From an uncultured Bacilli bacterium (GTDB taxonomy: Bacteria; Bacillota_I; Bacilli_A; RF39; UBA660), in the NCBI GenBank assembly GCA_947624565.1, contig CANQKX010000002.1, positions 2,059-66,058 on the forward strand: a stretch of DNA of 64,000 nucleotides, read 5' to 3'. The notes under the pieces are model-generated. The model saw only the letters and a program-made list of their open reading frames with translations, had not been told where the DNA came from and did no database searches. Below are positions 1 to 55,500 of the stretch, one piece after another. Positions within the stretch are counted from its first letter, which is position 1, and the number at the start of each line of letters is the position of its first letter. The translations under genes were made by a program, and so were the position numbers.

Positions 1-1262
1 CTGGATATTTAGAAGATTTAATAAGTAATGACTTAGTTTCTAAAGATAAAAACGGGAAAAGTTTATTATATTACTTAATTAATATAGATAAAGATTTAAC
101 TTTAAAGGAAATTTTATCTTTCAAAGAAAAAATAAAACCTGAAGTATTCACTGAACTTAAATTACTAGGTATTTCTGATTCGCTTATAAATATTAACTAT
201 ACTAAATTTCAGTGTAGTGATATTTATAGAAAACAAAAAAATAGCATTTATGACGAAAACATGGTTTCACCAGTTGATGATTTACTAAATGAACTTGAAA
301 GTTTATTTGAAAATGATGGGCATAGTGATAAGGAAATAATAAGTGCTCTTATTACTTCATATAAATATTCAACAAGTGTAAACCCTATTATGATAGAAGA
401 AGTAAAACAGTTAATAGAAATTAAAAAAAATAATCCTGACTTTTACTATCTTAAAAAAATAGATGGTGGATATTTTTCTTGTTTTGATAAAGCAGTTATT
501 GTAGAAAATAGCACAATTAGTACACTCAACCATGAAACAGGACATGCTATTCATTATTTTTTAGCAGATTTTCAAATACCAGAAAATTATGACAGTCTTA
601 TTCATTCAATTGCTAATAGTCCAGATTGGTTAGGCAAAGTAGAACAATATTCAAACAAATTTAAAGAAATTTATAATTATGTTAAAAGTGTATCTGAAAA
701 TATTATAGATAGTTATATATCTGAAGAAACTGTTAGTATTAATCAAAAGGAAATACATGCACTGTTAAATGAAACAAAAGAAAAACAAAAACAAATGTAT
801 TTAGAAAAAGGATATTCTGATGAAACGATAAGTATAATTTTAGATGGTACATTTACTGCAGAAGAATTCATGAGACAAAAAAAAGATATCGAAATTCATG
901 AAATGAATAATACTCTTATGGAATATAATTATGATGCTTTTATAGCTATAGGGGATATTGTAGATGCCATTACAGTTGGGAAATTTCGCAGTGATTTGTT
1001 AAAAAATGAAAAGAATGAAACGATTAAATCAGGTTATGGTCATGGAATTAGGTATTATTCTGCAAGAAAAGAAGTTGGATTTCATGAAATGATAGCCAAT
1101 TACTCATCTATTATCAAATCAAAAAAATGCAATGAAAATATTGAACTTTTAAGATATATTGTTGGTGATGAATTAGTTGATTTACTAGAAAATTTTTATA
1201 ATAACAATATACTTAAAATTGATTATGAAAAAGATGAAAGTTTAAATGGCTACACTATATAG
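1..1262 (+). CDS. 5'-partial hypothetical protein with an HExxH motif (LNHETGHAIHYF), a possible metallopeptidase-like domain. The frame is open from window position 3, so the protein is longer than the 333-aa ORF listed
   Basis: I traced the frame of ORF 261..1262 back to the window edge without finding a stop. The upstream translation (GYLEDLISNDLVSKDKNGKSLLYYLINIDKDL...) reads like real protein. The HExxH motif is visible. Confidence 0.45.
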   Translation, partial: GYLEDLISNDLVSKDKNGKSLLYYLINIDKDLTLKEILSFKEKIKPEVFTELKLLGISDSLININYTKFQCSDIYRKQKNSIYDENMVSPVDDLLNELESLFENDGHSDKEIISALITSYKYSTSVNPIMIEEVKQLIEIKKNNPDFYYLKKIDGGYFSCFDKAVIVENSTISTLNHETGHAIHYFLADFQIPENYDSLIHSIANSPDWLGKVEQYSNKFKEIYNYVKSVSENIIDSYISEETVSINQKEIHALLNETKEKQKQMYLEKGYSDETISIILDGTFTAEEFMRQKKDIEIHEMNNTLMEYNYDAFIAIGDIVDAITVGKFRSDLLKNEKNETIKSGYGHGIRYYSARKEVGFHEMIANYSSIIKSKKCNENIELLRYIVGDELVDLLENFYNNNILKIDYEKDESLNGYTI

Positions 1263-1271
1263 GAGGAAATT

Positions 1272-1493
1272 ATGGATGATATGGACTTAAATTTATATGT
1301 AATTGCTGAAATAAGATACCAAAAGGAACATGAAAACGAAGATAATATTTTTCCTATCGATTGGTATTCTAGTCAAAACTATAAATTAAAAACTGAAATT
1401 ATTGCTGAAGCAATCAAAAATCATACTACTATAGAACAAACGAATTTATATAATGAAAAATTTAAAGAAAAAATTAAATTTTATGAAAATTAA
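1272..1493 (+). CDS. small hypothetical protein (73 aa), likely translationally coupled to the upstream gene
   Basis: RBS aggagg 6 nt upstream of the ATG, and only a 9-nt gap after the upstream stop. Confidence 0.35.
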   Translation: MDDMDLNLYVIAEIRYQKEHENEDNIFPIDWYSSQNYKLKTEIIAEAIKNHTTIEQTNLYNEKFKEKIKFYEN

Positions 1494-1700
1494 CAAATAA
1501 GTAATTATCTTATTTGTTTTTTATTTATTTAATTTATCACAAATAAATCCATTTAATATAGTTAGTATTTTTTTTATCTGAAATACTTGTAATATCAGAA
1601 AAAGTATAATTATTCATATACATTTTAAATGTTCTTTTAGCAACTTTAGTTTTTATCTCATTTATTGTTTGTTCTCTTTAAAGTTATACAACAATATCAT

Positions 1701-1853
1701 TTATTTTTTGACTACATATATATCAAAAATTGTCCATTCTTGAACCTTAAAAAAATTTATTAAATTTATTTGAACAGAAACAGAATATGCTTCTTGAATT
1801 TGTCTTTCGGTTGAAACTCTTATATATATTCTTGTGCTTTTATTTTTCATCAT
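1701..1853 (-). pseudogene. truncated serine recombinase/resolvase fragment (N-terminal ~50 aa only)
   Basis: Minus-strand translation MMKNKSTRIYIRVSTERQIQEAYSVSVQINLINFFKVQEWTIFDIYVVKK* matches the resolvase N-terminal catalytic motif (Y-x-R-V-S-T-x-x-Q ... GYSL..Q ... GW.I.DIY.D) and then terminates prematurely. An aaggaa RBS lies upstream. Confidence 0.45.
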
Positions 1854-1985
1854 GAGTTCCTTGTAATATTTTCTGTATTTTTTTAGATAAAATTATTTTT
1901 TTACTCATATTAAGCATTTGCTAAATAATAATTTTTTTTATTTGAATTAGTCATATTAATTTAAACTATAGCCGAAGCAATAAGT

Positions 1986-2150
1986 ATGTGTAATAAGATA
2001 TTAGTTTTAACAAAAAGACCATCTACAATAAAGAAAACATACAATATTGATTATAATTTTGATAGAGATAATCCTGTAAAAAGTAGAAGTAGTAAAGAAT
2101 TTATGGAATATTATGAAAAAATTTGGGAAGATCTTAATAATGAAAAGTGA
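1986..2150 (+). pseudogene. C-terminal remnant of an ABC transporter ATP-binding protein (NitT/TauT-type)
   Basis: The 54-aa ORF MCNKILVLTKRPSTIKKTYNIDYNF...EFMEYYEKIWEDLNNEK* resembles the C-terminus of SsuB/TauB-like ATPases (ILVL..RP..I). It overlaps the start of the downstream permease in the usual operon arrangement, and no intact N-terminal Walker A region lies upstream. Confidence 0.4.
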
Positions 2151-2925
2151 AGGCTATAAAAAGTATTTAAAAAGAATAAAAAGGAATAATATTCTAGTAT
2201 TTACTACACAGATAATTTTAGTTGTTTCATTTATTGTTATATGGCAGATATTAGCAAATAAAAAAATAGTTAATACATTTTTGGTATCTAGTCCTAGTAA
2301 GGTTTATTCAACGATTATTGATTTATTTAAATCCAATAATTTATGGAATCATATATTTACTACAGTATATGAAATTATTATAAGCTTTTTATTAGGTAAT
2401 TTTATAGGAGTTTTTGTAGCAAGTATATTATGGTTTAATAAATTTTTAGCAAGAGTGTTTGAACCATTTTTAACTATTTTAAATAGTTTGCCTAAAGTAG
2501 CACTTGGTCCTCTTATTATAATATGGGCGGGGGCAAATGTTAAATCTATAATAATTATGGCACTTTTGATATCATCTATTATAAGTATAATAAATATATA
2601 TAATAGTTTTAAAAGTACTGATGTCAATAAAATAAAAATAATAAAATCAATGGGTGGAAGTAAGTTTCAAATATATAAAAATGTAATTTTAAGAGATAAC
2701 TATACAAAAATAATAGAATCTTTTAAACTAAATGTTAGTATGTGTTTTGTTGGAGTTATTATGGGAGAATTATTAGTATCAAAAGAAGGAGTAGGTTATT
2801 TAATAATGTATGGATCACAAGTATTTAATATGAATTTTGTAATAACAGGAGTAGTGCTTTTAGTAATACTTACAATTATACTTTATTATGTTATTAATTA
2901 TATAGAAAAAGTTTCTAGAAAATAG
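2140..2925 (+). CDS. ABC transporter permease, binding-protein-dependent inner-membrane component (NitT/TauT family). The listed ORF starts at 2113; 2140 is the likelier start
   Basis: Multiple TM segments and a permease signature region (LNSLPKVALGPLIIIWAG). It overlaps the ATPase remnant stop. Confidence 0.7.
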   Translation: MKSEGYKKYLKRIKRNNILVFTTQIILVVSFIVIWQILANKKIVNTFLVSSPSKVYSTIIDLFKSNNLWNHIFTTVYEIIISFLLGNFIGVFVASILWFNKFLARVFEPFLTILNSLPKVALGPLIIIWAGANVKSIIIMALLISSIISIINIYNSFKSTDVNKIKIIKSMGGSKFQIYKNVILRDNYTKIIESFKLNVSMCFVGVIMGELLVSKEGVGYLIMYGSQVFNMNFVITGVVLLVILTIILYYVINYIEKVSRK

Positions 2926-2989
2926 AGACTTTTTTGTTTTACAAAATTAGTCTATATATGTTAAAATATTTAGTAGGAAGGCAGTAAAT

Positions 2990-5083
2990 ATGAATATTGA
3001 CAGTTTAAATGAAAAGCAAAAAGAAGCAGTAATAAATTATACTGGTCCTATGCTCATACTAGCAGGGGCAGGTTCAGGTAAAACAAAAGTATTAACAACT
3101 AAGGTTGCTTATTTGATTAATGAAAAAAATATTTATCCAGAAAATATTTTAGCAATTACATTTACTAATAAAGCTGCTAAAGAAATGAAGTCAAGGATAT
3201 ATTCAATTGTTGGTTCAAAGGCTTTTAAAATTCAAATATCTACATTTCATTCTTTTGGGCTTAAAATAATTAAAGAAAATGCAAGATTACTTGGTTATGA
3301 TAGTAATTTTACAATACTTGATTCAGATGATTCATTATCAGTTGTAAAAAAAATATTAAAAGAATTTAATATAGATTCAAATAAATATAATCCAAAAGCA
3401 ATAAGAAATGTTATCAGTAATAATAAAAATGAAATGATAGATGCGATTAGTTTTTCAAAATATGCTCATACCGATTTTGATGAAATTGTAAATAAGGTAT
3501 ATGAAAAATATGAAAGAAATTTAAAACTAAATAATGCTATTGACTTTGACGATTTACTTATTCTTCCTTTAAAATTATTTAAAGAATATCCAAGAATATT
3601 ACAAGAATATCAAGAAAAATACAAATATGTATTTATAGATGAATATCAAGATACCAATGAACCACAATATATATTATCTAAAATGATAAGTGCAAAATAT
3701 AAAAATATAACGGTAGTTGGTGATGCAGATCAGGCAATATTTACTTGGAGAGGGGCTAATTATAAGAATATATTAAATTTTGAAAAAGATTATCCAAATT
3801 GTAAAGTTGTTTTATTAGAGGAAAATTATAGATCTACTAAAATAATATTGAAAGCAGCAAATAATGTTATAAAAAATAATAAAATTAGAAAAGAGAAAAA
3901 TCTTTGGACACAAAATGATGAAGGATGTAAAATTGTATATTACAAAGCATTTGATGAAAAAGATGAATCAAGTTATGTTGTTCATGAAATAAAAAGATTA
4001 CTTGAAGAAAATGTAAGTCCAAATGATATATGTGTCTTATATAGAGCAAATGCACAATCAAGAACAGTAGAAGAGGCTTTTTTAACAAGTAATATATCTT
4101 ATAATATTGTAGGATCATATGCATTCTATAATAGAAAAGAAATAAAAGATTTAATTGCATATTTAAAACTTATCTATAATAATAAAGATGATATATCATT
4201 ACTTAGAGTAATAAATTATCCTAAAAGAGGAATAGGAAATAAATCAATAGAAAATTTAAGTATAAAAGCGGATATAGAAAATAAATCGTTATATGAAGTT
4301 ATATCATCCGGAAAAGAATTGCAATTTAAAAATATTATTGAAGATATAAAACAAGAGGTAGATAAAATCTCATTAACAGAACTTATAGATTTGATTTTAG
4401 ATAAAGCAGGAATAAAAAGTGATTTGGAAAGTGAAAAAACAATAGAAGCAGATATTAGACTTGAAAATTTAGAGGAATTTAAATCTATAACAAAAACATT
4501 TGAAGATAGTGAAGGAATTATATCACTTGGTGATTTTTTAGATGAATTATCACTAGTTAGTGATGTAAGCGAACAAAAAGATGATAATAGTGAAAAAGTA
4601 ACTTTAATGACAATGCATTCAGTTAAAGGACTTGAATTTGATTACGTTTTTGTAGTAGGATTCGAAGAAGGTCTTTTTCCACATGTAAATAGTATGGAAT
4701 CTAATGATGAATTAGAAGAAGAAAGAAGATTATGTTATGTTGCTATAACAAGAGCAAAGAAAAAACTATATTTAATAAATGCAAGAAGTAGAATTTTATA
4801 TGGAAAAGTATCATCAAATATACCAAGTAGATTCGTAAAAGAAATTGGTGATGATTTACTGGAAACAGTAGGTAAAAAAGAAGAAGTTATATTTAAAAAT
4901 AAAATAGATAAAACTAATATGTATAACGATGATAATGATTTACATCCAGGAGATATAATTACGCATGATAAATATGGTACAGGTGTAGTAGTATCTATAG
5001 ATGGAGTAATTGCTAGTATTGCATTTAAAAAAGATGGATTAAAAAAATTAATGAAAAATCATAAAAGTATAAAGAAGGTATAA
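2990..5083 (+). CDS. pcrA: ATP-dependent DNA helicase PcrA/UvrD family
   Basis: Walker A AGAGSGKT, motifs DEYQDTN and VVGDADQAIF, the TMHSVKGLEF motif, and a C-terminal tudor-like tail. Length is 697 aa. Confidence 0.9.
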   Translation: MNIDSLNEKQKEAVINYTGPMLILAGAGSGKTKVLTTKVAYLINEKNIYPENILAITFTNKAAKEMKSRIYSIVGSKAFKIQISTFHSFGLKIIKENARLLGYDSNFTILDSDDSLSVVKKILKEFNIDSNKYNPKAIRNVISNNKNEMIDAISFSKYAHTDFDEIVNKVYEKYERNLKLNNAIDFDDLLILPLKLFKEYPRILQEYQEKYKYVFIDEYQDTNEPQYILSKMISAKYKNITVVGDADQAIFTWRGANYKNILNFEKDYPNCKVVLLEENYRSTKIILKAANNVIKNNKIRKEKNLWTQNDEGCKIVYYKAFDEKDESSYVVHEIKRLLEENVSPNDICVLYRANAQSRTVEEAFLTSNISYNIVGSYAFYNRKEIKDLIAYLKLIYNNKDDISLLRVINYPKRGIGNKSIENLSIKADIENKSLYEVISSGKELQFKNIIEDIKQEVDKISLTELIDLILDKAGIKSDLESEKTIEADIRLENLEEFKSITKTFEDSEGIISLGDFLDELSLVSDVSEQKDDNSEKVTLMTMHSVKGLEFDYVFVVGFEEGLFPHVNSMESNDELEEERRLCYVAITRAKKKLYLINARSRILYGKVSSNIPSRFVKEIGDDLLETVGKKEEVIFKNKIDKTNMYNDDNDLHPGDIITHDKYGTGVVVSIDGVIASIAFKKDGLKKLMKNHKSIKKV

Positions 5084-5086
5084 AGT

Positions 5087-5950
5087 ATGAAAAAAATAAG
5101 AAAATGTGTAATTCCAGTCGCAGGTATGGGGACAAGATTTTTACCTGCAACAAAAGCAACTCCAAAGGAAATGCTTCCAATAATTGATAAACCAACTTTA
5201 CAATATATAGTTGAAGAAGCAGTAAATAGTGGGATTGAGGAAATTTTATTTATAACAAGTCCATATAAAAATTCTGTATTGGATCATTTTGACAAAAGTT
5301 ATGAACTTGAAAATAGACTTAGACAATCTGGAAAATTAGATAAACTTGAGATGATAGAAAATATATCATCACTTGCTAAATTTTATTATATAAGACAAGG
5401 TGAACCAAATGGTAGTGGACATGCTATTAATCTTGCTAGATTTTTTGTTGGTGATGAACCATTTGCAGTTATGTATGGTGATGATTTAATGAAGTCAGAT
5501 GTACCAGTATTAAAACAGTTAATAGATATCTATGAACAAAGAGATTGTAATGTAATTGGTGTTCAAGAAGTTGATCCTAGAATTGTTTATAAATATGGAA
5601 TAATTGAGTATGATAATGTAGAAGGGAAAATTAAAGATATTATTGAAAAACCAAGTATACAGGAAGCTCCAAGTAATCATGCTGGATTAGGTAGATATAT
5701 AGTAAAACCTGAAATATTTGATGAATTAGAAAATCTGAATAGAGGAGCAGGTAATGAATATCAATTTACTGATGGTATGAGAGCACTAATGAAAAAACAA
5801 GATTTTTATGCTTGTAAATTTGAAGGTAAATACTTTGATATAGGTAATCAGTTTGGATATATAAAAGCAAATATTGAATATGCATTAGATAGAACTGATA
5901 TAAAAGATGATTTACAAGATTATTTATCTAAAAAATTAGTATTAAAATAA
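5087..5950 (+). CDS. galU: UTP--glucose-1-phosphate uridylyltransferase
   Basis: N-terminal VIPVAGMGTRFLPATKATPKEMLPI signature of GalU-type nucleotidyltransferases. Confidence 0.85.
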   Translation: MKKIRKCVIPVAGMGTRFLPATKATPKEMLPIIDKPTLQYIVEEAVNSGIEEILFITSPYKNSVLDHFDKSYELENRLRQSGKLDKLEMIENISSLAKFYYIRQGEPNGSGHAINLARFFVGDEPFAVMYGDDLMKSDVPVLKQLIDIYEQRDCNVIGVQEVDPRIVYKYGIIEYDNVEGKIKDIIEKPSIQEAPSNHAGLGRYIVKPEIFDELENLNRGAGNEYQFTDGMRALMKKQDFYACKFEGKYFDIGNQFGYIKANIEYALDRTDIKDDLQDYLSKKLVLK

Positions 5951-5993
5951 TAAAAATAAATATAATAAAAATAATTATTATAAAGGAAGATGA

Positions 5994-7988
<1,995 letters not shown>

Positions 7989-8037
7989 AAATTTGATAAA
8001 CTTATAAAAATATGATAATATTTAATTAGGTGATAGT

Positions 8038-9087
8038 ATGAAAGTATCAGTAATTATACCTGCGTATAATGCAGAAAATTATATTAAAAGATGTCTTGAT
8101 AGTGTAATTAATCAAGTATATAAAAATTTAGAAATCATTGTTGTAGATGATTCGTCAACAGATAATACAAAACAAATTATTAAAGAATATAGTGAAAAAG
8201 ATAGTAGAATAATTCCGTTTTATTCAAGTTTAAATAAAGGTGTTAGTGCATCAAGAAATATTGGTTTAAAATCAGCAACAGGAGACTATATAATGTTTGT
8301 AGATTCTGATGATGAAATTACTAAAGATGCAATAAGAAGAATGGTTGATATTTCAAATAAGTATAATTCTGATTATGTGGATAGTTATCATTTATTAAAT
8401 TATACGAAAGATAATAATAAAAAAGTAACATTTACTGAACATAAAGTTCCTAAAAATGTATTAGTTCTTGGTTCATTAAAAGAAAATAATAAAGTTTTGG
8501 ATACATATACATATGTAACTGGTAAATTATTTAAAAAAGAATTAATTGGTGAATTACAGTTCGATGAAAATTTATCTAGATATGAAGATTTAGTATTTGA
8601 ACATCAATTAAAAAGTAGAGTTAAAAATTATGTACTTTTAAATAAAGTTATATACATATATTATCAAAGAGAAGATTCTTTGGTAAATACATTTGGTAAG
8701 AAACATTTATGTTATTTAGATGCTGCTAAAAGTGTAAGAGAAATATATAAAAAATATGATTTAGAAATAAAGAATAAAATAGATTCAATATTATTTTCAA
8801 ATATGGTATTAACATTATTTACAAAAGTAATAAAAAATGATGATAGTATAGAAGAAAATATAAAAATTGTAAAAGATTGTTTAAATGAATTAATAGATAC
8901 ATTTAAAAACTATAAAGAAAATAAGTATATAAATCCATTTATGAAAAAATTTATTGATAAATATATTAATAATGAAACAAAATTAAAAAAATTAATTATT
9001 AGATTACAAAAGAAAAATTTAATAAAATTATATTTTAATTATCTATCATTAACAAATAAATATGAAATAAAAAATCCATTAGCATAA
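8038..9087 (+). CDS. family 2 glycosyltransferase
   Basis: N-terminal VSVIIPAYNAENYIKRCLDSVINQ...VVDDSSTD GT2 motif and a DSDD motif. Confidence 0.75.
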   Translation: MKVSVIIPAYNAENYIKRCLDSVINQVYKNLEIIVVDDSSTDNTKQIIKEYSEKDSRIIPFYSSLNKGVSASRNIGLKSATGDYIMFVDSDDEITKDAIRRMVDISNKYNSDYVDSYHLLNYTKDNNKKVTFTEHKVPKNVLVLGSLKENNKVLDTYTYVTGKLFKKELIGELQFDENLSRYEDLVFEHQLKSRVKNYVLLNKVIYIYYQREDSLVNTFGKKHLCYLDAAKSVREIYKKYDLEIKNKIDSILFSNMVLTLFTKVIKNDDSIEENIKIVKDCLNELIDTFKNYKENKYINPFMKKFIDKYINNETKLKKLIIRLQKKNLIKLYFNYLSLTNKYEIKNPLA

Positions 9088-53984: not shown

Positions 53985-54722
53985 ATGGATAGAAAAGTAT
54001 CTATAAATGTAAAAAATGTTAGTAAAACTTTTAAGTTATATTATGATAAAGCAAGTACTTTAAAAGAAAAATTATTGTTTTTTAAAAAAGATAATAAACC
54101 AGAGACTTTAGAAGTTTTAAAAAATATAAATATAAAAATATATGATGGAGAAAGTGTTGCTTTAATAGGTACAAATGGTAGTGGGAAAAGTACCTTATTA
54201 AAATTGATGACTAAAATAATATATCCTAATAAGGGTAAAATTGAGATAGATGGCAAATTAACATCATTACTTGAATTAGGCGCAGGGTTTCATATGGATT
54301 TTTCGGGAAGAGAAAATATATATTTTAATGCATCTATATTTGGATTAACTAAAAAACAGATAGATGAAAGATTAGATAAAATTATAGAATTTTCTGAGCT
54401 TGGGGAATTTATTGATAATCCTGTAAGGACATATTCTTCTGGTATGTATATGCGTTTAGCATTTTCTATAGCGATTAATGTAGATGCAGATATATTATTG
54501 ATAGATGAAATTTTATCTGTAGGAGATCAACATTACCAAGATAAGTGTTTTAATAAATTAATGGAATTAAAAGACTCTGGTAAAACAATAGTTATAGTAT
54601 CTCATAGTTTAGATTCAGTAAGAAAATTTTGTGATAGAAGTATTTGGCTTTATAATGGAGAAATTCGTATGGATGGGAATACTAATGATGTATTAGATGA
54701 ATACATCAAAGTTTGTAGGTGA
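53985..54722 (+). CDS. ABC transporter ATP-binding protein, TagH/Wzt-like polysaccharide exporter component
   Basis: Walker A GTNGSGKST, signature SSGMYMRLAF, and Walker B LLIDEIL. Confidence 0.75.
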   Translation: MDRKVSINVKNVSKTFKLYYDKASTLKEKLLFFKKDNKPETLEVLKNINIKIYDGESVALIGTNGSGKSTLLKLMTKIIYPNKGKIEIDGKLTSLLELGAGFHMDFSGRENIYFNASIFGLTKKQIDERLDKIIEFSELGEFIDNPVRTYSSGMYMRLAFSIAINVDADILLIDEILSVGDQHYQDKCFNKLMELKDSGKTIVIVSHSLDSVRKFCDRSIWLYNGEIRMDGNTNDVLDEYIKVCR

Positions 54723-54726
54723 AAAA

Positions 54727-55500
54727 ATGAAAGTATTTAAGGAGTTATATAAATATAGAGAATTATTAAAAAATAATATAAAAAAGGAAATTAGAGGAAA
54801 ATATAAAGGATCATGGTTAGGTGTTGTTTGGACATTTTTAAATCCATTATTAATGCTTTTAGTTTATTCAATTGTATTTCCTTATATATTGAGAGTAAAT
54901 GTAGAACATTATACAATATTTATGATGGTTGCATTAGTACCATGGACATTTTTTACAACAGCAGTACAAACAGGAACAGGAAGTGTAGTAGAAAATGGTG
55001 CAATACTTAAAAAAGTTTATTTTCCACGAGAAATAATACCAATATCAGTTGTTACAAGTGCGCTTATTAACTTTTTAATTACATGTATTATTATGTTTTT
55101 ATTTATATTATTTAGTGGTGTAGGATTTTCAGTTCATTTATTATTATTTCCAGGTTTAGTATTGATTCAATATATTATTACGCTTGCAATTGTATTTGTT
55201 TTATCAGCAATTAATGTGTATATAAGAGATGTTGATCATTTTGTAAGTATTATAATTACACTTGCATTTTATGTAACACCAATTGTATATAAAGCAGATA
55301 TGTTACCTGCCAAATTTAGTTGGGCGTTAAAAGTAAATCCTATGGCTCAGTTAATTGAGGGTTATAGAGCAATTTTATATAGCCATGAGATGCCAGATGT
55401 TAGAATGTTAGGTATTTGGGCAATAATTTCTTTAGTAATTTTAGTAATAGGTTATGTTATATTTAAAAGAAGCGAAAGAAAATTTGTGGAAGAATTATAA
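54727..55500 (+). CDS. ABC-2 type permease, TagG/Wzm-like
   Basis: Six TM segments and an ABC-2 N-terminal motif (LIKKEIRGKYKGSWLGVVW). Confidence 0.7.
   Translation: MKVFKELYKYRELLKNNIKKEIRGKYKGSWLGVVWTFLNPLLMLLVYSIVFPYILRVNVEHYTIFMMVALVPWTFFTTAVQTGTGSVVENGAILKKVYFPREIIPISVVTSALINFLITCIIMFLFILFSGVGFSVHLLLFPGLVLIQYIITLAIVFVLSAINVYIRDVDHFVSIIITLAFYVTPIVYKADMLPAKFSWALKVNPMAQLIEGYRAILYSHEMPDVRMLGIWAIISLVILVIGYVIFKRSERKFVEEL

What the first reader, a model, noticed from the sequence alone, without database searches (positions are those of the whole stretch)
1500..2150. Decayed mobile-element scar: truncated serine recombinase plus an ABC ATPase remnant leaving an orphan permease
The minus strand at 1701-1853 encodes only the first 50 or so residues of a serine recombinase (IYIRVSTERQ...EAYS..Q...EWTIFDIYVVKK*) with an intact RBS and then a premature stop. 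At 1986-2150 the last 54 residues of a NitT/TauT-type ABC ATPase remain, still overlapping the start of an intact permease (2140-2925) that has no ATPase or binding-protein partner nearby. The 600-nt stretch is otherwise non-coding. Together this looks like an insertion and excision or a deletion that removed most of a transporter operon. It may also mark the boundary of an integrated element carrying the two unusual upstream genes.
Basis: partly seen in the sequence, partly recalled or inferred. Interest (0 to 1): 0.5.

Follow-up and report, generated by a model that had tools for sequence, protein, structure and literature searches.

The report
Dead serine-integrase scar splitting a transporter operon
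A site-specific serine integrase inserted into the ATPase gene of a three-gene nutrient importer in an uncultured gut bacterium and then decayed, leaving an integrase pseudogene, the last 58 codons of the ATPase and an intact but partnerless permease; this is ordinary genome decay, though related integrases hit exactly the same site in other species.

Summary
Window 1701-1853(-) is the N-terminus of a large serine recombinase (LSR). Window 1974-2150(+) is the tail of a NitT/TauT-type ABC ATPase. The permease (2140-2925) is intact and has no partner in the 64 kb. An independent assembly is 100% identical across the junction.

Three points refine the finding.
- The LSR is a multiply deleted pseudogene, with a second remnant at 1582-1707.
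- The ATPase break is an LSR attachment junction. A related metagenome contig (L011) has an intact 508-aa LSR joined to the 5' half of the same ATPase gene at the same 5-nt core, GAAGC. Two further contigs (L017, L018/L019) show LSR-GAAGC-ATPase-tail junctions like the window's.
- The two upstream genes are not element cargo. Relatives carry them as a chromosomal pair with no recombinase nearby.

Close relatives have tsaE-tsaB-rimI-tsaD, a pilin-like gene, the binding-protein gene and the ATPase 5' half directly upstream of the permease. All of this is missing from the locus. I could not tell whether it was deleted or moved.

Verdict: a new example of a known kind, an integrase scar in a disrupted gene. 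Interest is low to moderate. The element may have been integrase-only (about 1.8 kb), but this is unproven.

The parts
1272..1493 (+). 73-aa gene, the last gene of the left chromosomal flank. It is paired with the upstream 1063-aa HExxH gene, whose 3' part is window 1-1262.
   Evidence: The pair is conserved in L008/L009 (followed by tsaE) and in L010 (after smc-holA). It is therefore chromosomal, not element cargo.
1492..1530 (+). AT-rich hairpin followed by a T-run. It is probably the intrinsic terminator of the 73-aa gene and marks the end of the left flank.
   Evidence: RNA fold -8.3 kcal/mol, z -4.1, 0 of 200 shuffles fold as well. The consensus scan does not call it because it requires at least 3 G-C pairs.
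1531..1581 (.). Zone containing the left deletion or rearrangement junction. It has no significant similarity to anything retrieved.
   Evidence: A marginal tblastn match to LSR aa 408-422 at about 1508-1552 (E 0.024). DNA alignment to the 3' part of the L011 LSR is not above shuffles (72 of 300).
1582..1707 (-). Second remnant of the recombinase gene, corresponding to LSR aa ~125-207. It is in a different frame, has in-frame stops and carries an internal deletion.
   Evidence: tblastn with the L011 LSR aa 176-207 gives 47% identity, E 6e-9. P0265 aa 125-143 and 174-202 also match. DNA match 1639-1704 to L011 6554-6613, 0 of 300 shuffles.
1701..1853 (-). N-terminal remnant of the large serine recombinase. 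It is a 50-aa ORF with the catalytic-serine motif IYIRVSTERQ, and homology ends after '...FDIY'.
   Evidence: 53% identity to the L011 LSR aa 5-49, E 7e-13. DNA is 73.5% identical to L011 6853-6969.
1854..1973 (-). Element-derived 5' flank of the recombinase gene, ending in the P half-site of the attR junction (...AAACTATAGCC). It also holds a small conserved ORF at 1840-1917(-).
   Evidence: Homologous to L011 7072-7178 (score 63 against shuffles 43.9 +/- 5.6; 3 of 300 reach it). The terminal TAGCC is shared with the L018 junction.
1974..1978 (.). GAAGC, the core shared by attB, attL and attR. The crossover lies within it.
   Evidence: L011 keeps ATPase sequence up to ...CAGAAGC. The window, L017 and L018 have ATPase sequence from GAAGC onward. 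Intact sites read CAGAAGCAAT.
1974..2150 (+). 3' remnant of the NitT/TauT-type ABC ATPase gene (58 codons plus stop, EAISMCNK...NNEK). It has no frameshift or internal stop. The first ATG gives the 54-aa ORF at 1986-2150.
2140..2925 (+). Intact permease (261 aa from the conserved MKSEGYKK start) whose start overlaps the ATPase stop. It is an orphan in this window.
   Evidence: Pfam BPD_transp_1 and NCBIfam SsuC/TauC-like. It is 90% identical to the L002 permease, with no clear excess divergence.

Best explanation
The ancestor of this bacterium had the locus found in its relatives: (rRNA operon)-tsaE-tsaB-rimI-tsaD-pilin-like gene-binding protein-ATPase-permease-pcrA.

A mobile element moved by a large serine recombinase integrated site-specifically into the ATPase gene. 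The integrase is of the TP901-1/phi105 type. The attachment site has the core GAAGC and lies in the codons for '...THDISEAIS...', just after the H-loop. This split the ATPase gene. The recombinase gene lay at the right end of the insert, with its start codon about 120 nt from the right-hand junction (attR).

The recombinase gene was then destroyed by at least two internal deletions and point changes, so the insert could no longer excise. Everything to its left is now absent from this locus. That includes the 3' two-thirds of the recombinase gene, the left junction, the first ~190 codons of the ATPase, the binding-protein gene and, judged from relatives, the pilin-like gene and the tsa cluster. 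The recombinase remnant is therefore fused to the terminator of an unrelated conserved gene.

What remains is attR, a 58-codon ATPase tail and an intact permease. Without its ATPase and binding protein, the permease cannot work as an importer.

Shown: the homologies, the shared junction and the decay of the recombinase gene.
Inferred: the order of events, the ancestral gene order, and that the missing segment was deleted rather than moved.
For: - The ancestral order is intact in L003, L005, L006, L007 and L014. L014 is collinear with the window from the permease through pcrA, galU, ligA and a GT2 gene.
- L011 reads tsaE...SBP-ATPase aa 1-193, then the break '...CATATCAGAAGC|TATGTTC', then 140 nt later the stop codon of an intact 508-aa LSR with Resolvase, Recombinase and Zn_ribbon_recom domains.
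- The window resumes the ATPase at '...TATAGCC|GAAGCAATAAGTATG'.
- L017 and L018/L019 show the same LSR(-)-GAAGC-ATPase-tail junction in more distant species.
- The LSRs of L011 and L018 are 53% identical to each other, and each is about 52-53% identical to the window fragment. Diverged LSRs sharing one target gene is the signature of site-specific LSRs (PMC10083194).
- Two or three recombinase remnants lie in different frames with stop codons.
- The junction is 100% identical in an independent assembly.
- The left neighbours are chromosomal. They are co-oriented with the permease side, so a simple deletion is sufficient to explain the arrangement.
Against: - A deletion would have removed tsaE, tsaB and tsaD. 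These t6A genes are essential in most bacteria (my own knowledge). The segment may instead have been moved, and I could not retrieve the rest of the genome.
- In none of the four instances are both ATPase halves next to the recombinase. A plain insertion followed by independent flank deletions in every case is not fully comfortable.
- The ATPase tail and the permease show no decay, while the recombinase gene is heavily eroded.
- The position of the 1063-aa/73-aa pair in the immediate ancestor is inferred only from a distant relative (L008). In close relatives an rRNA operon lies upstream of tsaE and the contigs stop there.
- The crossover dinucleotide and the att half-site symmetry are not established. 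Palindrome tests were weak.
Confidence: 0.75

Rival explanations
1. The missing segment (tsa genes, binding protein, ATPase 5' half and the left junction) was relocated rather than deleted. The cause would be recombination between two copies of a small integrase-only element, or integrase-mediated recombination with a secondary site. The two ATPase halves would then sit at different places in the chromosome.
For: - The tsa genes are normally essential (own knowledge).
- Both ATPase halves are adjacent in 0 of 4 instances. L011 has IS30-like and metS genes where the ATPase tail should be. The window, L017 and L018 each have a different left neighbour.
- The LSR start lies 44-117 nt from attR (window, L017, L018) and the LSR stop 140 nt from attL (L011). 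This fits a ~1.8-kb element that could exist in several copies.
- Separated att halves are known from tripartite ICEs (PMC5882170).
Against: - No second copy of the LSR exists in the 64-kb window.
- No complete small insertion and no multi-copy genome was found.
- The window's flanks are co-oriented, as expected for a simple deletion.
- All instances were found through the LSR N-terminus or through TsaD, so the sample is biased.
Confidence: 0.25
2. The insert was originally a large element (prophage or ICE/IME) with the integrase at one end. The cargo was later deleted along with the left flank.
For: - The closest annotated relatives of the L011 LSR are prophage integrases at about 30% identity.
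- L012, a 55%-identical N-terminal relative, sits next to a CI-like repressor.
- The DNA to the right of the L011 LSR (IS30-like gene, extra metS, unknown 221-aa gene) could be cargo.
Against: - In the window, L017 and L018 the LSR start is 44-117 nt from attR. In L011 the LSR stop is 140 nt from attL. These leave no room for cargo on either side unless the architectures differ.
- No phage or conjugation gene lies near any of the four instances.
- A scan of viral contigs found no relative.
Confidence: 0.2
3. One reading: the scar is the right boundary of an integrated element that carries the two upstream genes (1063-aa HExxH protein and 73-aa protein).
For: Neither gene has a Pfam or NCBIfam match, and they lie next to the recombinase remnant.
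Against: Homologous pairs at 44-50% identity lie in conserved chromosomal contexts without any recombinase: before tsaE-tsaB-rimI-tsaD in L008/L009 and after smc-holA in L010. The 73-aa gene has its own terminator. The recombinase 3' end, not its att site, faces these genes.
Confidence: 0.04
4. The small ORFs resemble a recombinase and an ATPase only by chance in AT-rich DNA.
For: The Pfam Resolvase score is below threshold (E 0.069). The word-index search found no homologue of the 50-aa ORF.
Against: E 7e-13 and 6e-9 against an intact LSR. E 1.6e-32 for the ATPase tail. The same junction occurs in four contigs.
Confidence: 0.01

Closest known systems
Large serine integrases of temperate phages of Firmicutes (TP901-1 Int, phi105 Int, SPbeta SprA, A118 Int)
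   Same: The intact family members (L011, L018) have the Resolvase + Recombinase + zinc-ribbon architecture. They are about 30% identical to phi105, AP45 and Streptococcus prophage integrases, and the TP901-1 catalytic domain is the best solved-structure match (E 3.5e-23). Integration is site-specific, inside a coding sequence, and creates no target duplication.
   Different: No phage genes accompany any instance, and the insert may contain the integrase alone. In the window the gene is a dead relic.
Gene-interrupting 'intervening elements' excised by serine recombinases (skin/SpoIVCA in sigK, SPbeta/SprA in spsM, Anabaena XisF fdxN element); own knowledge and PMC8270828
   Same: A serine-recombinase element sits inside a host gene, which would be restored by precise excision.
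   Different: Here the recombinase is destroyed and one half of the target gene is gone, so the interruption is irreversible. There is no evidence of regulated excision.
Defective ('grounded') prophages and integrase pseudogenes left after deletional decay (PMC6379469)
   Same: A mobile-element remnant is reduced by successive deletions to an integrase fragment next to an att junction, with loss of flanking host DNA.
   Different: The remnant here is extreme, with about 270 nt of integrase sequence left. The flank loss appears to include normally essential genes.
Clostridial LSR transposons Tn4451/Tn4453 (TnpX) and Tn5397 (TndX); own knowledge
   Same: Small non-phage elements moved by a large serine recombinase through a circular intermediate.
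   Different: Those elements carry resistance cargo and have relaxed target choice. This family shows one conserved target site and no recognisable cargo.
SCCmec recombinase CcrB (best NCBIfam hit to the 50-aa ORF)
   Same: The N-terminal 47 residues align to CcrB positions 4-50 (E 7.3e-8).
   Different: The score is 31.5 bits against a family cut-off of 900, so this is only generic serine-recombinase N-terminal similarity. It is not a CcrB.

Membership tests
Large serine recombinase (serine integrase) | N-terminal resolvase-type catalytic domain with the nucleophilic serine in a Y/I-x-R-V-S-T/S motif | tested here: inconclusive
   The motif IYIRVSTERQ and about 47 residues of the domain are present. 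About 100 further residues of the ~145-residue domain are deleted, so the domain cannot fold. The sequence is descended from a family member but is not a functional member.
Large serine recombinase (serine integrase) | C-terminal Recombinase domain, zinc ribbon and coiled coil | tested here: not met
   In the window only a ~40-codon piece around the linker and the start of the Recombinase domain survives, out of frame and with stops. The intact relatives L011 (508 aa) and L018 (412 aa) carry these domains.
Large serine recombinase (serine integrase) | Short specific attB and attP; integration gives hybrid attL/attR around a 2-nt crossover without target duplication | tested here: met
   One attL (L011) and three attR junctions (window, L017, L018) map to the same 5-nt core GAAGC of intact attB sites in L002, L003, L006 and L014. 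The exact dinucleotide is not resolved, and half-site symmetry is only weak.
NitT/TauT-type ABC importer (TC 3.A.1.17: binding protein + ATPase + permease) | Permease with BPD_transp_1 fold, SsuC/TauC-like | tested here: met
   Pfam E 8.5e-21. NCBIfam SsuC E 5e-23 and TauC E 4e-20, all below the equivalog cut-offs.
NitT/TauT-type ABC importer (TC 3.A.1.17: binding protein + ATPase + permease) | Cognate ATPase with Walker A/B, signature motif and H-loop | tested here: not met
   Only the last 58 codons, downstream of the H-loop, remain. The full 234-249-aa protein is present in relatives.
NitT/TauT-type ABC importer (TC 3.A.1.17: binding protein + ATPase + permease) | NMT1-type substrate-binding protein encoded with the system | tested here: not met
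   tblastn finds no match in the 64-kb window. Relatives encode a 330-343-aa NMT1/NMT1_2 protein directly upstream.
Prophage or ICE/IME | Structural, replication or conjugation genes between two att junctions | tested here: not met
   No such genes lie near the scar. The left neighbours are conserved chromosomal genes. The viral-contig scan was negative.
Integrase-only, IS-like serine-recombinase element (hypothetical for LSRs; IS607 uses small serine recombinases) | A complete insertion consisting of the recombinase gene alone between both target halves, and several copies per genome | not testable with these tools
   The distances from the LSR to attL (140 nt, L011) and to attR (44-117 nt) fit such an element. 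No complete insertion and no copy count could be obtained because the look-ups and searches were exhausted.

The most novel reading that the evidence does not exclude
This recombinase family may belong to a ~1.7-1.9-kb element that carries nothing but a large serine integrase. It would insert into one conserved site (core GAAGC) just after the H-loop codons of NitT/TauT-type ABC ATPase genes across distantly related gut Bacilli. Recombination between its copies or att sites would then split the target gene halves to different chromosomal places. That would explain why no instance has both halves adjacent, and why the tsa cluster is missing from this locus without being lost from the genome.
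Probability: 0.2. Interest if true: 0.55.

Novelty: new member of a known kind. Interest (0 to 1): 0.3.

Why it matters
For annotation: the 50-aa and 54-aa ORFs should be marked as pseudogene fragments. The permease should be marked as a probably non-functional orphan. The two upstream genes should not be treated as island cargo.

Biologically: this is a clear example of how a site-specific integrase disables a transporter operon and triggers local deletion in a small, AT-rich gut genome.

Wider value: the attachment site is defined to within 5 nt and is shared by integrases only ~53% identical to each other. That gives a ready attB and attP candidate pair for testing. A second, unrelated integrase element targets the binding-protein gene of the same operon in two other species.

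If the integrase-only reading or the loss of the t6A genes were confirmed, the locus would become considerably more interesting.

Tried and rejected
- **Exact-protein look-ups for longer context.** I tried the permease, the 73-aa protein and the 1063-aa protein. Only the 5.2-kb contig L001 came back. The 98-kb source contig is not retrievable.
- **Word-index homology search with the 50-aa ORF.** It found only itself. The exhaustive search was needed.
- **Matching TsaD hits to the window's MAG by accession.** No accessions are on record for the window's proteins.
- **Searching for the L011 LSR elsewhere.** Viral contigs gave nothing. JGI metagenomes gave one 27%-identical relative.
- **Flanking direct repeats.** I found a 28-nt pair (1567-1594 and 1931-1958, 79% identical) and a 15-nt pair (1400-1414 and 1967-1981). 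I treat both as chance or irrelevant. Serine integrases make no target duplication, and the left copies lie inside the recombinase remnant and the intact 73-aa gene.
- **Palindromic symmetry of the reconstructed sites.** attP scored 13 of 22 (89 of 2000 shuffles reach it). attB was not above chance. This is too weak to use.
- **Rfam scan of window 1200-3100.** No RNA family matched.
- **Consensus promoter and terminator scan.** Uninformative in this AT-rich DNA.
- **Permease relaxed-selection check.** The window shows 5 private changes at otherwise invariant sites against 2 in L002. This is inconclusive.
- **L011 as the missing other half of the window's genome.** Rejected. Its LSR is complete and only 73% identical in DNA to the window's remnant.

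Full report
**Setting.** The window is about 22% G+C. Almost all genes are on the + strand and there are no tRNAs. Relatives retrieved with the permease are uncultured gut Bacilli/'Tenericutes' MAGs and Clostridium sp. CAG:433.

- The 50-aa ORF at 1701-1853(-) and the 54-aa ORF at 1986-2150(+) exist.
- The 50-aa ORF carries the serine-recombinase motif IYIRVSTERQ. It matches the N-terminus of CcrB (E 7.3e-8) and the Pfam Resolvase domain weakly (E 0.069).
- An exhaustive phmmer search of 1.84 billion representatives finds 18 relatives at 41-63% identity. They include full-length recombinases of 412-507 aa.
- The 54-aa ORF is the C-terminus of a 234-249-aa ABC ATPase that is intact in seven related contigs. 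tblastn gives E 1.6e-32.
- The permease is intact and SsuC/TauC-like.
- An independent Logan assembly (L001, reported for 4 samples) is 100% identical over window 1-2990. The arrangement is therefore not a MAG artefact.

**What the locus looked like before.**
- L003, L005, L006, L007 and L014 all read tsaE-tsaB-rimI-tsaD-(pilin-like)-binding protein (NMT1)-ATPase-permease-pcrA.
- L014 continues with galU-ligA-GT2 exactly as the window does, at about 80% DNA identity.
- In L003, L005, L006, L011 and L014 a 23S/5S rRNA operon lies just upstream of tsaE. This is why contigs end there.
- The window has none of tsaE, tsaB, rimI, tsaD, the pilin-like gene, the binding protein or the ATPase 5' half anywhere in its 64 kb.

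**The break in the ATPase is an integrase junction.** I searched with TsaD of the closest relative and inspected contexts. This led to L011: tsaE...binding protein, then ATPase aa 1-193, then a break, then 140 nt later the stop codon of an intact 508-aa large serine recombinase on the minus strand. That protein has Resolvase, Recombinase and Zn_ribbon_recom domains. The junctions line up as follows.

| Site | Sequence |
|---|---|
| Intact attB (L003) | `CATGATATATCAGAAGCAATAAGTATGTG` |
| L011 attL | `CATGACATATCAGAAGC\|TATGTTCTTAATC` |
| Window attR | `TTTAAACTATAGCC\|GAAGCAATAAGTATGTG` |

- Both junctions fall in the same five bases, GAAGC (window 1974-1978).
- The L011 recombinase is 53% identical to the window's fragment (E 7e-13). 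The DNA is 73.5% identical.
- Two more contigs, from more distant species, repeat the window's arrangement.
  - L017 has a truncated recombinase N-terminus, 44 nt, then `...ACAAGT|GAAGCTATAAGT` and the ATPase tail.
  - L018/L019 have a 412-aa recombinase, 52 nt, then `...CTTTAGCC|GAAGCTATATC`, the ATPase tail (64 aa) and the permease.
- The L018 and L011 recombinases are 53% identical to each other. Diverged LSRs that share one target gene are what large surveys use as the signature of site-specific LSRs (PMC10083194).
- The closest annotated relatives are prophage integrases at about 30% identity and the TP901-1 integrase catalytic domain.

**The recombinase is a multiply deleted pseudogene, not a simple truncation.**
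- Besides aa 1-49 (window 1707-1853), aa ~125-207 survive at 1582-1707. They lie in another frame, carry stop codons and have an internal deletion.
- A marginal third piece may lie at about 1508-1552 (E 0.024).
- About 270 of the original ~1500 nt remain.
- The 5' flank of the gene (1854-1973) is homologous to the corresponding flank in L011. It ends in TAGCC, as the L018 junction does.

**The left side.**
- The remnant abuts the terminator hairpin of the 73-aa gene.
- The 73-aa gene and the 1063-aa HExxH gene before it are a conserved pair. They lie directly before tsaE in L008/L009 and after smc-holA in L010, with no recombinase nearby.
- The pair is co-oriented with the permease side. In a distant relative it lies just upstream of the tsa cluster. 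The simplest history is therefore a deletion running from inside the recombinase gene leftwards to the terminator of the 73-aa gene.
- That deletion would remove attL, the ATPase 5' half, the binding-protein gene, the pilin-like gene, the tsa cluster and probably an rRNA operon.

**What I cannot settle.**
- tsaE, tsaB and tsaD are essential in most bacteria (own knowledge), so the segment may have been moved rather than lost. The rest of this genome could not be retrieved.
- In none of the four instances are both ATPase halves next to the recombinase.
  - L011 has an IS30-like gene, a metS and an unknown gene where the ATPase tail should be.
  - The window, L017 and L018 each have a different left neighbour.
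- Three explanations are possible: ascertainment, repeated flank deletion once the operon is dead, or recombination between copies of a small element.
- The distances point to an element of only ~1.7-1.9 kb carrying the integrase alone. The LSR stop is 140 nt from attL, and the LSR start is 44-117 nt from attR. No complete insertion was seen, so I give this 20%.

**State of the survivors.**
- The ATPase tail has no frameshift or stop, and the permease shows no clear excess divergence.
- Either the disruption is fairly recent, or this stretch is constrained for another reason. Function of the permease alone is not expected for this transporter class (inference).

**Comparison and verdict.**
- This is a relic of a large serine integrase at a bona fide att junction in a disrupted host gene. 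That is a known kind of feature: integrase scars, grounded prophages and intervening elements.
- It is not a CcrB, because it scores 31.5 bits against a cut-off of 900.
- It is not a prophage or ICE remnant on any positive evidence.
- It is not the edge of an island carrying the upstream genes.
- Interest is 0.3 and novelty is 'new member of a known kind'.

Noticed in passing
window 1-1262 (+) and 1272-1493 (+); full gene in L001 82-3273: A 1063-aa protein with an HExxH motif (HETGHAIHYF) and a 73-aa partner form a conserved gene pair with no Pfam or NCBIfam match. The search found 117 homologues, including a large group of ~880-aa proteins that are 35% identical over the C-terminal half.
   Followed up: partly
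L002 ~3745-8850 and L004 ~2345-8850: A second, unrelated integrase element is cleanly inserted in the binding-protein gene of the same operon in two species. Its 569-aa LSR is 22% identical to the L011 LSR. No target bases are lost: attB GTAACATTATTTGAAC-CT-AGTGCTACACAAG, attL ...GAACTTAGTGTAAGAG, attR ...CTAAGAGAACCTAGTGC. Cargo includes a RhuM-family gene and a transglutaminase-like gene.
   Followed up: partly
L011 7180-11598: To the right of the intact LSR, where the ATPase tail is expected, lie about 500 nt of non-coding DNA, an IS30-like transposase, a 545-aa MetRS and an unknown 221-aa gene. This could be a secondary target flank, cargo or a rearrangement.
   Followed up: partly
window 1840-1917 (-) and L011 7023-7118 (-): A small ORF just upstream of, and overlapping, the recombinase start is conserved between the two elements (KKIILSKKIQKIL against NKIVLSKHIQEKM). 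It is absent from L017 and L018, which have only 44-52 nt there.
   Followed up: no
proteins P0254, P0255 (L017) and window 1701-1853: Several database fragments of this recombinase family end right after the '...DIY' motif, as the window's ORF does. This may be independent decay at the same point or an effect of short contigs.
   Followed up: partly
L003 1-560, L005 1-520, L006 ~200-650, L011 1-415, L014 1-2594: A 23S-5S rRNA operon lies immediately upstream of tsaE in the close relatives, and their contigs break there. In the more distant L008 the 1051-aa/74-aa pair occupies that position instead.
   Followed up: yes
window 53985-55500 (+): The only other ABC ATPase in the window belongs to an ABC-2 type exporter pair. 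It sits next to acyltransferase and GDSL-lipase genes and is not a possible partner for the orphan permease.
   Followed up: yes
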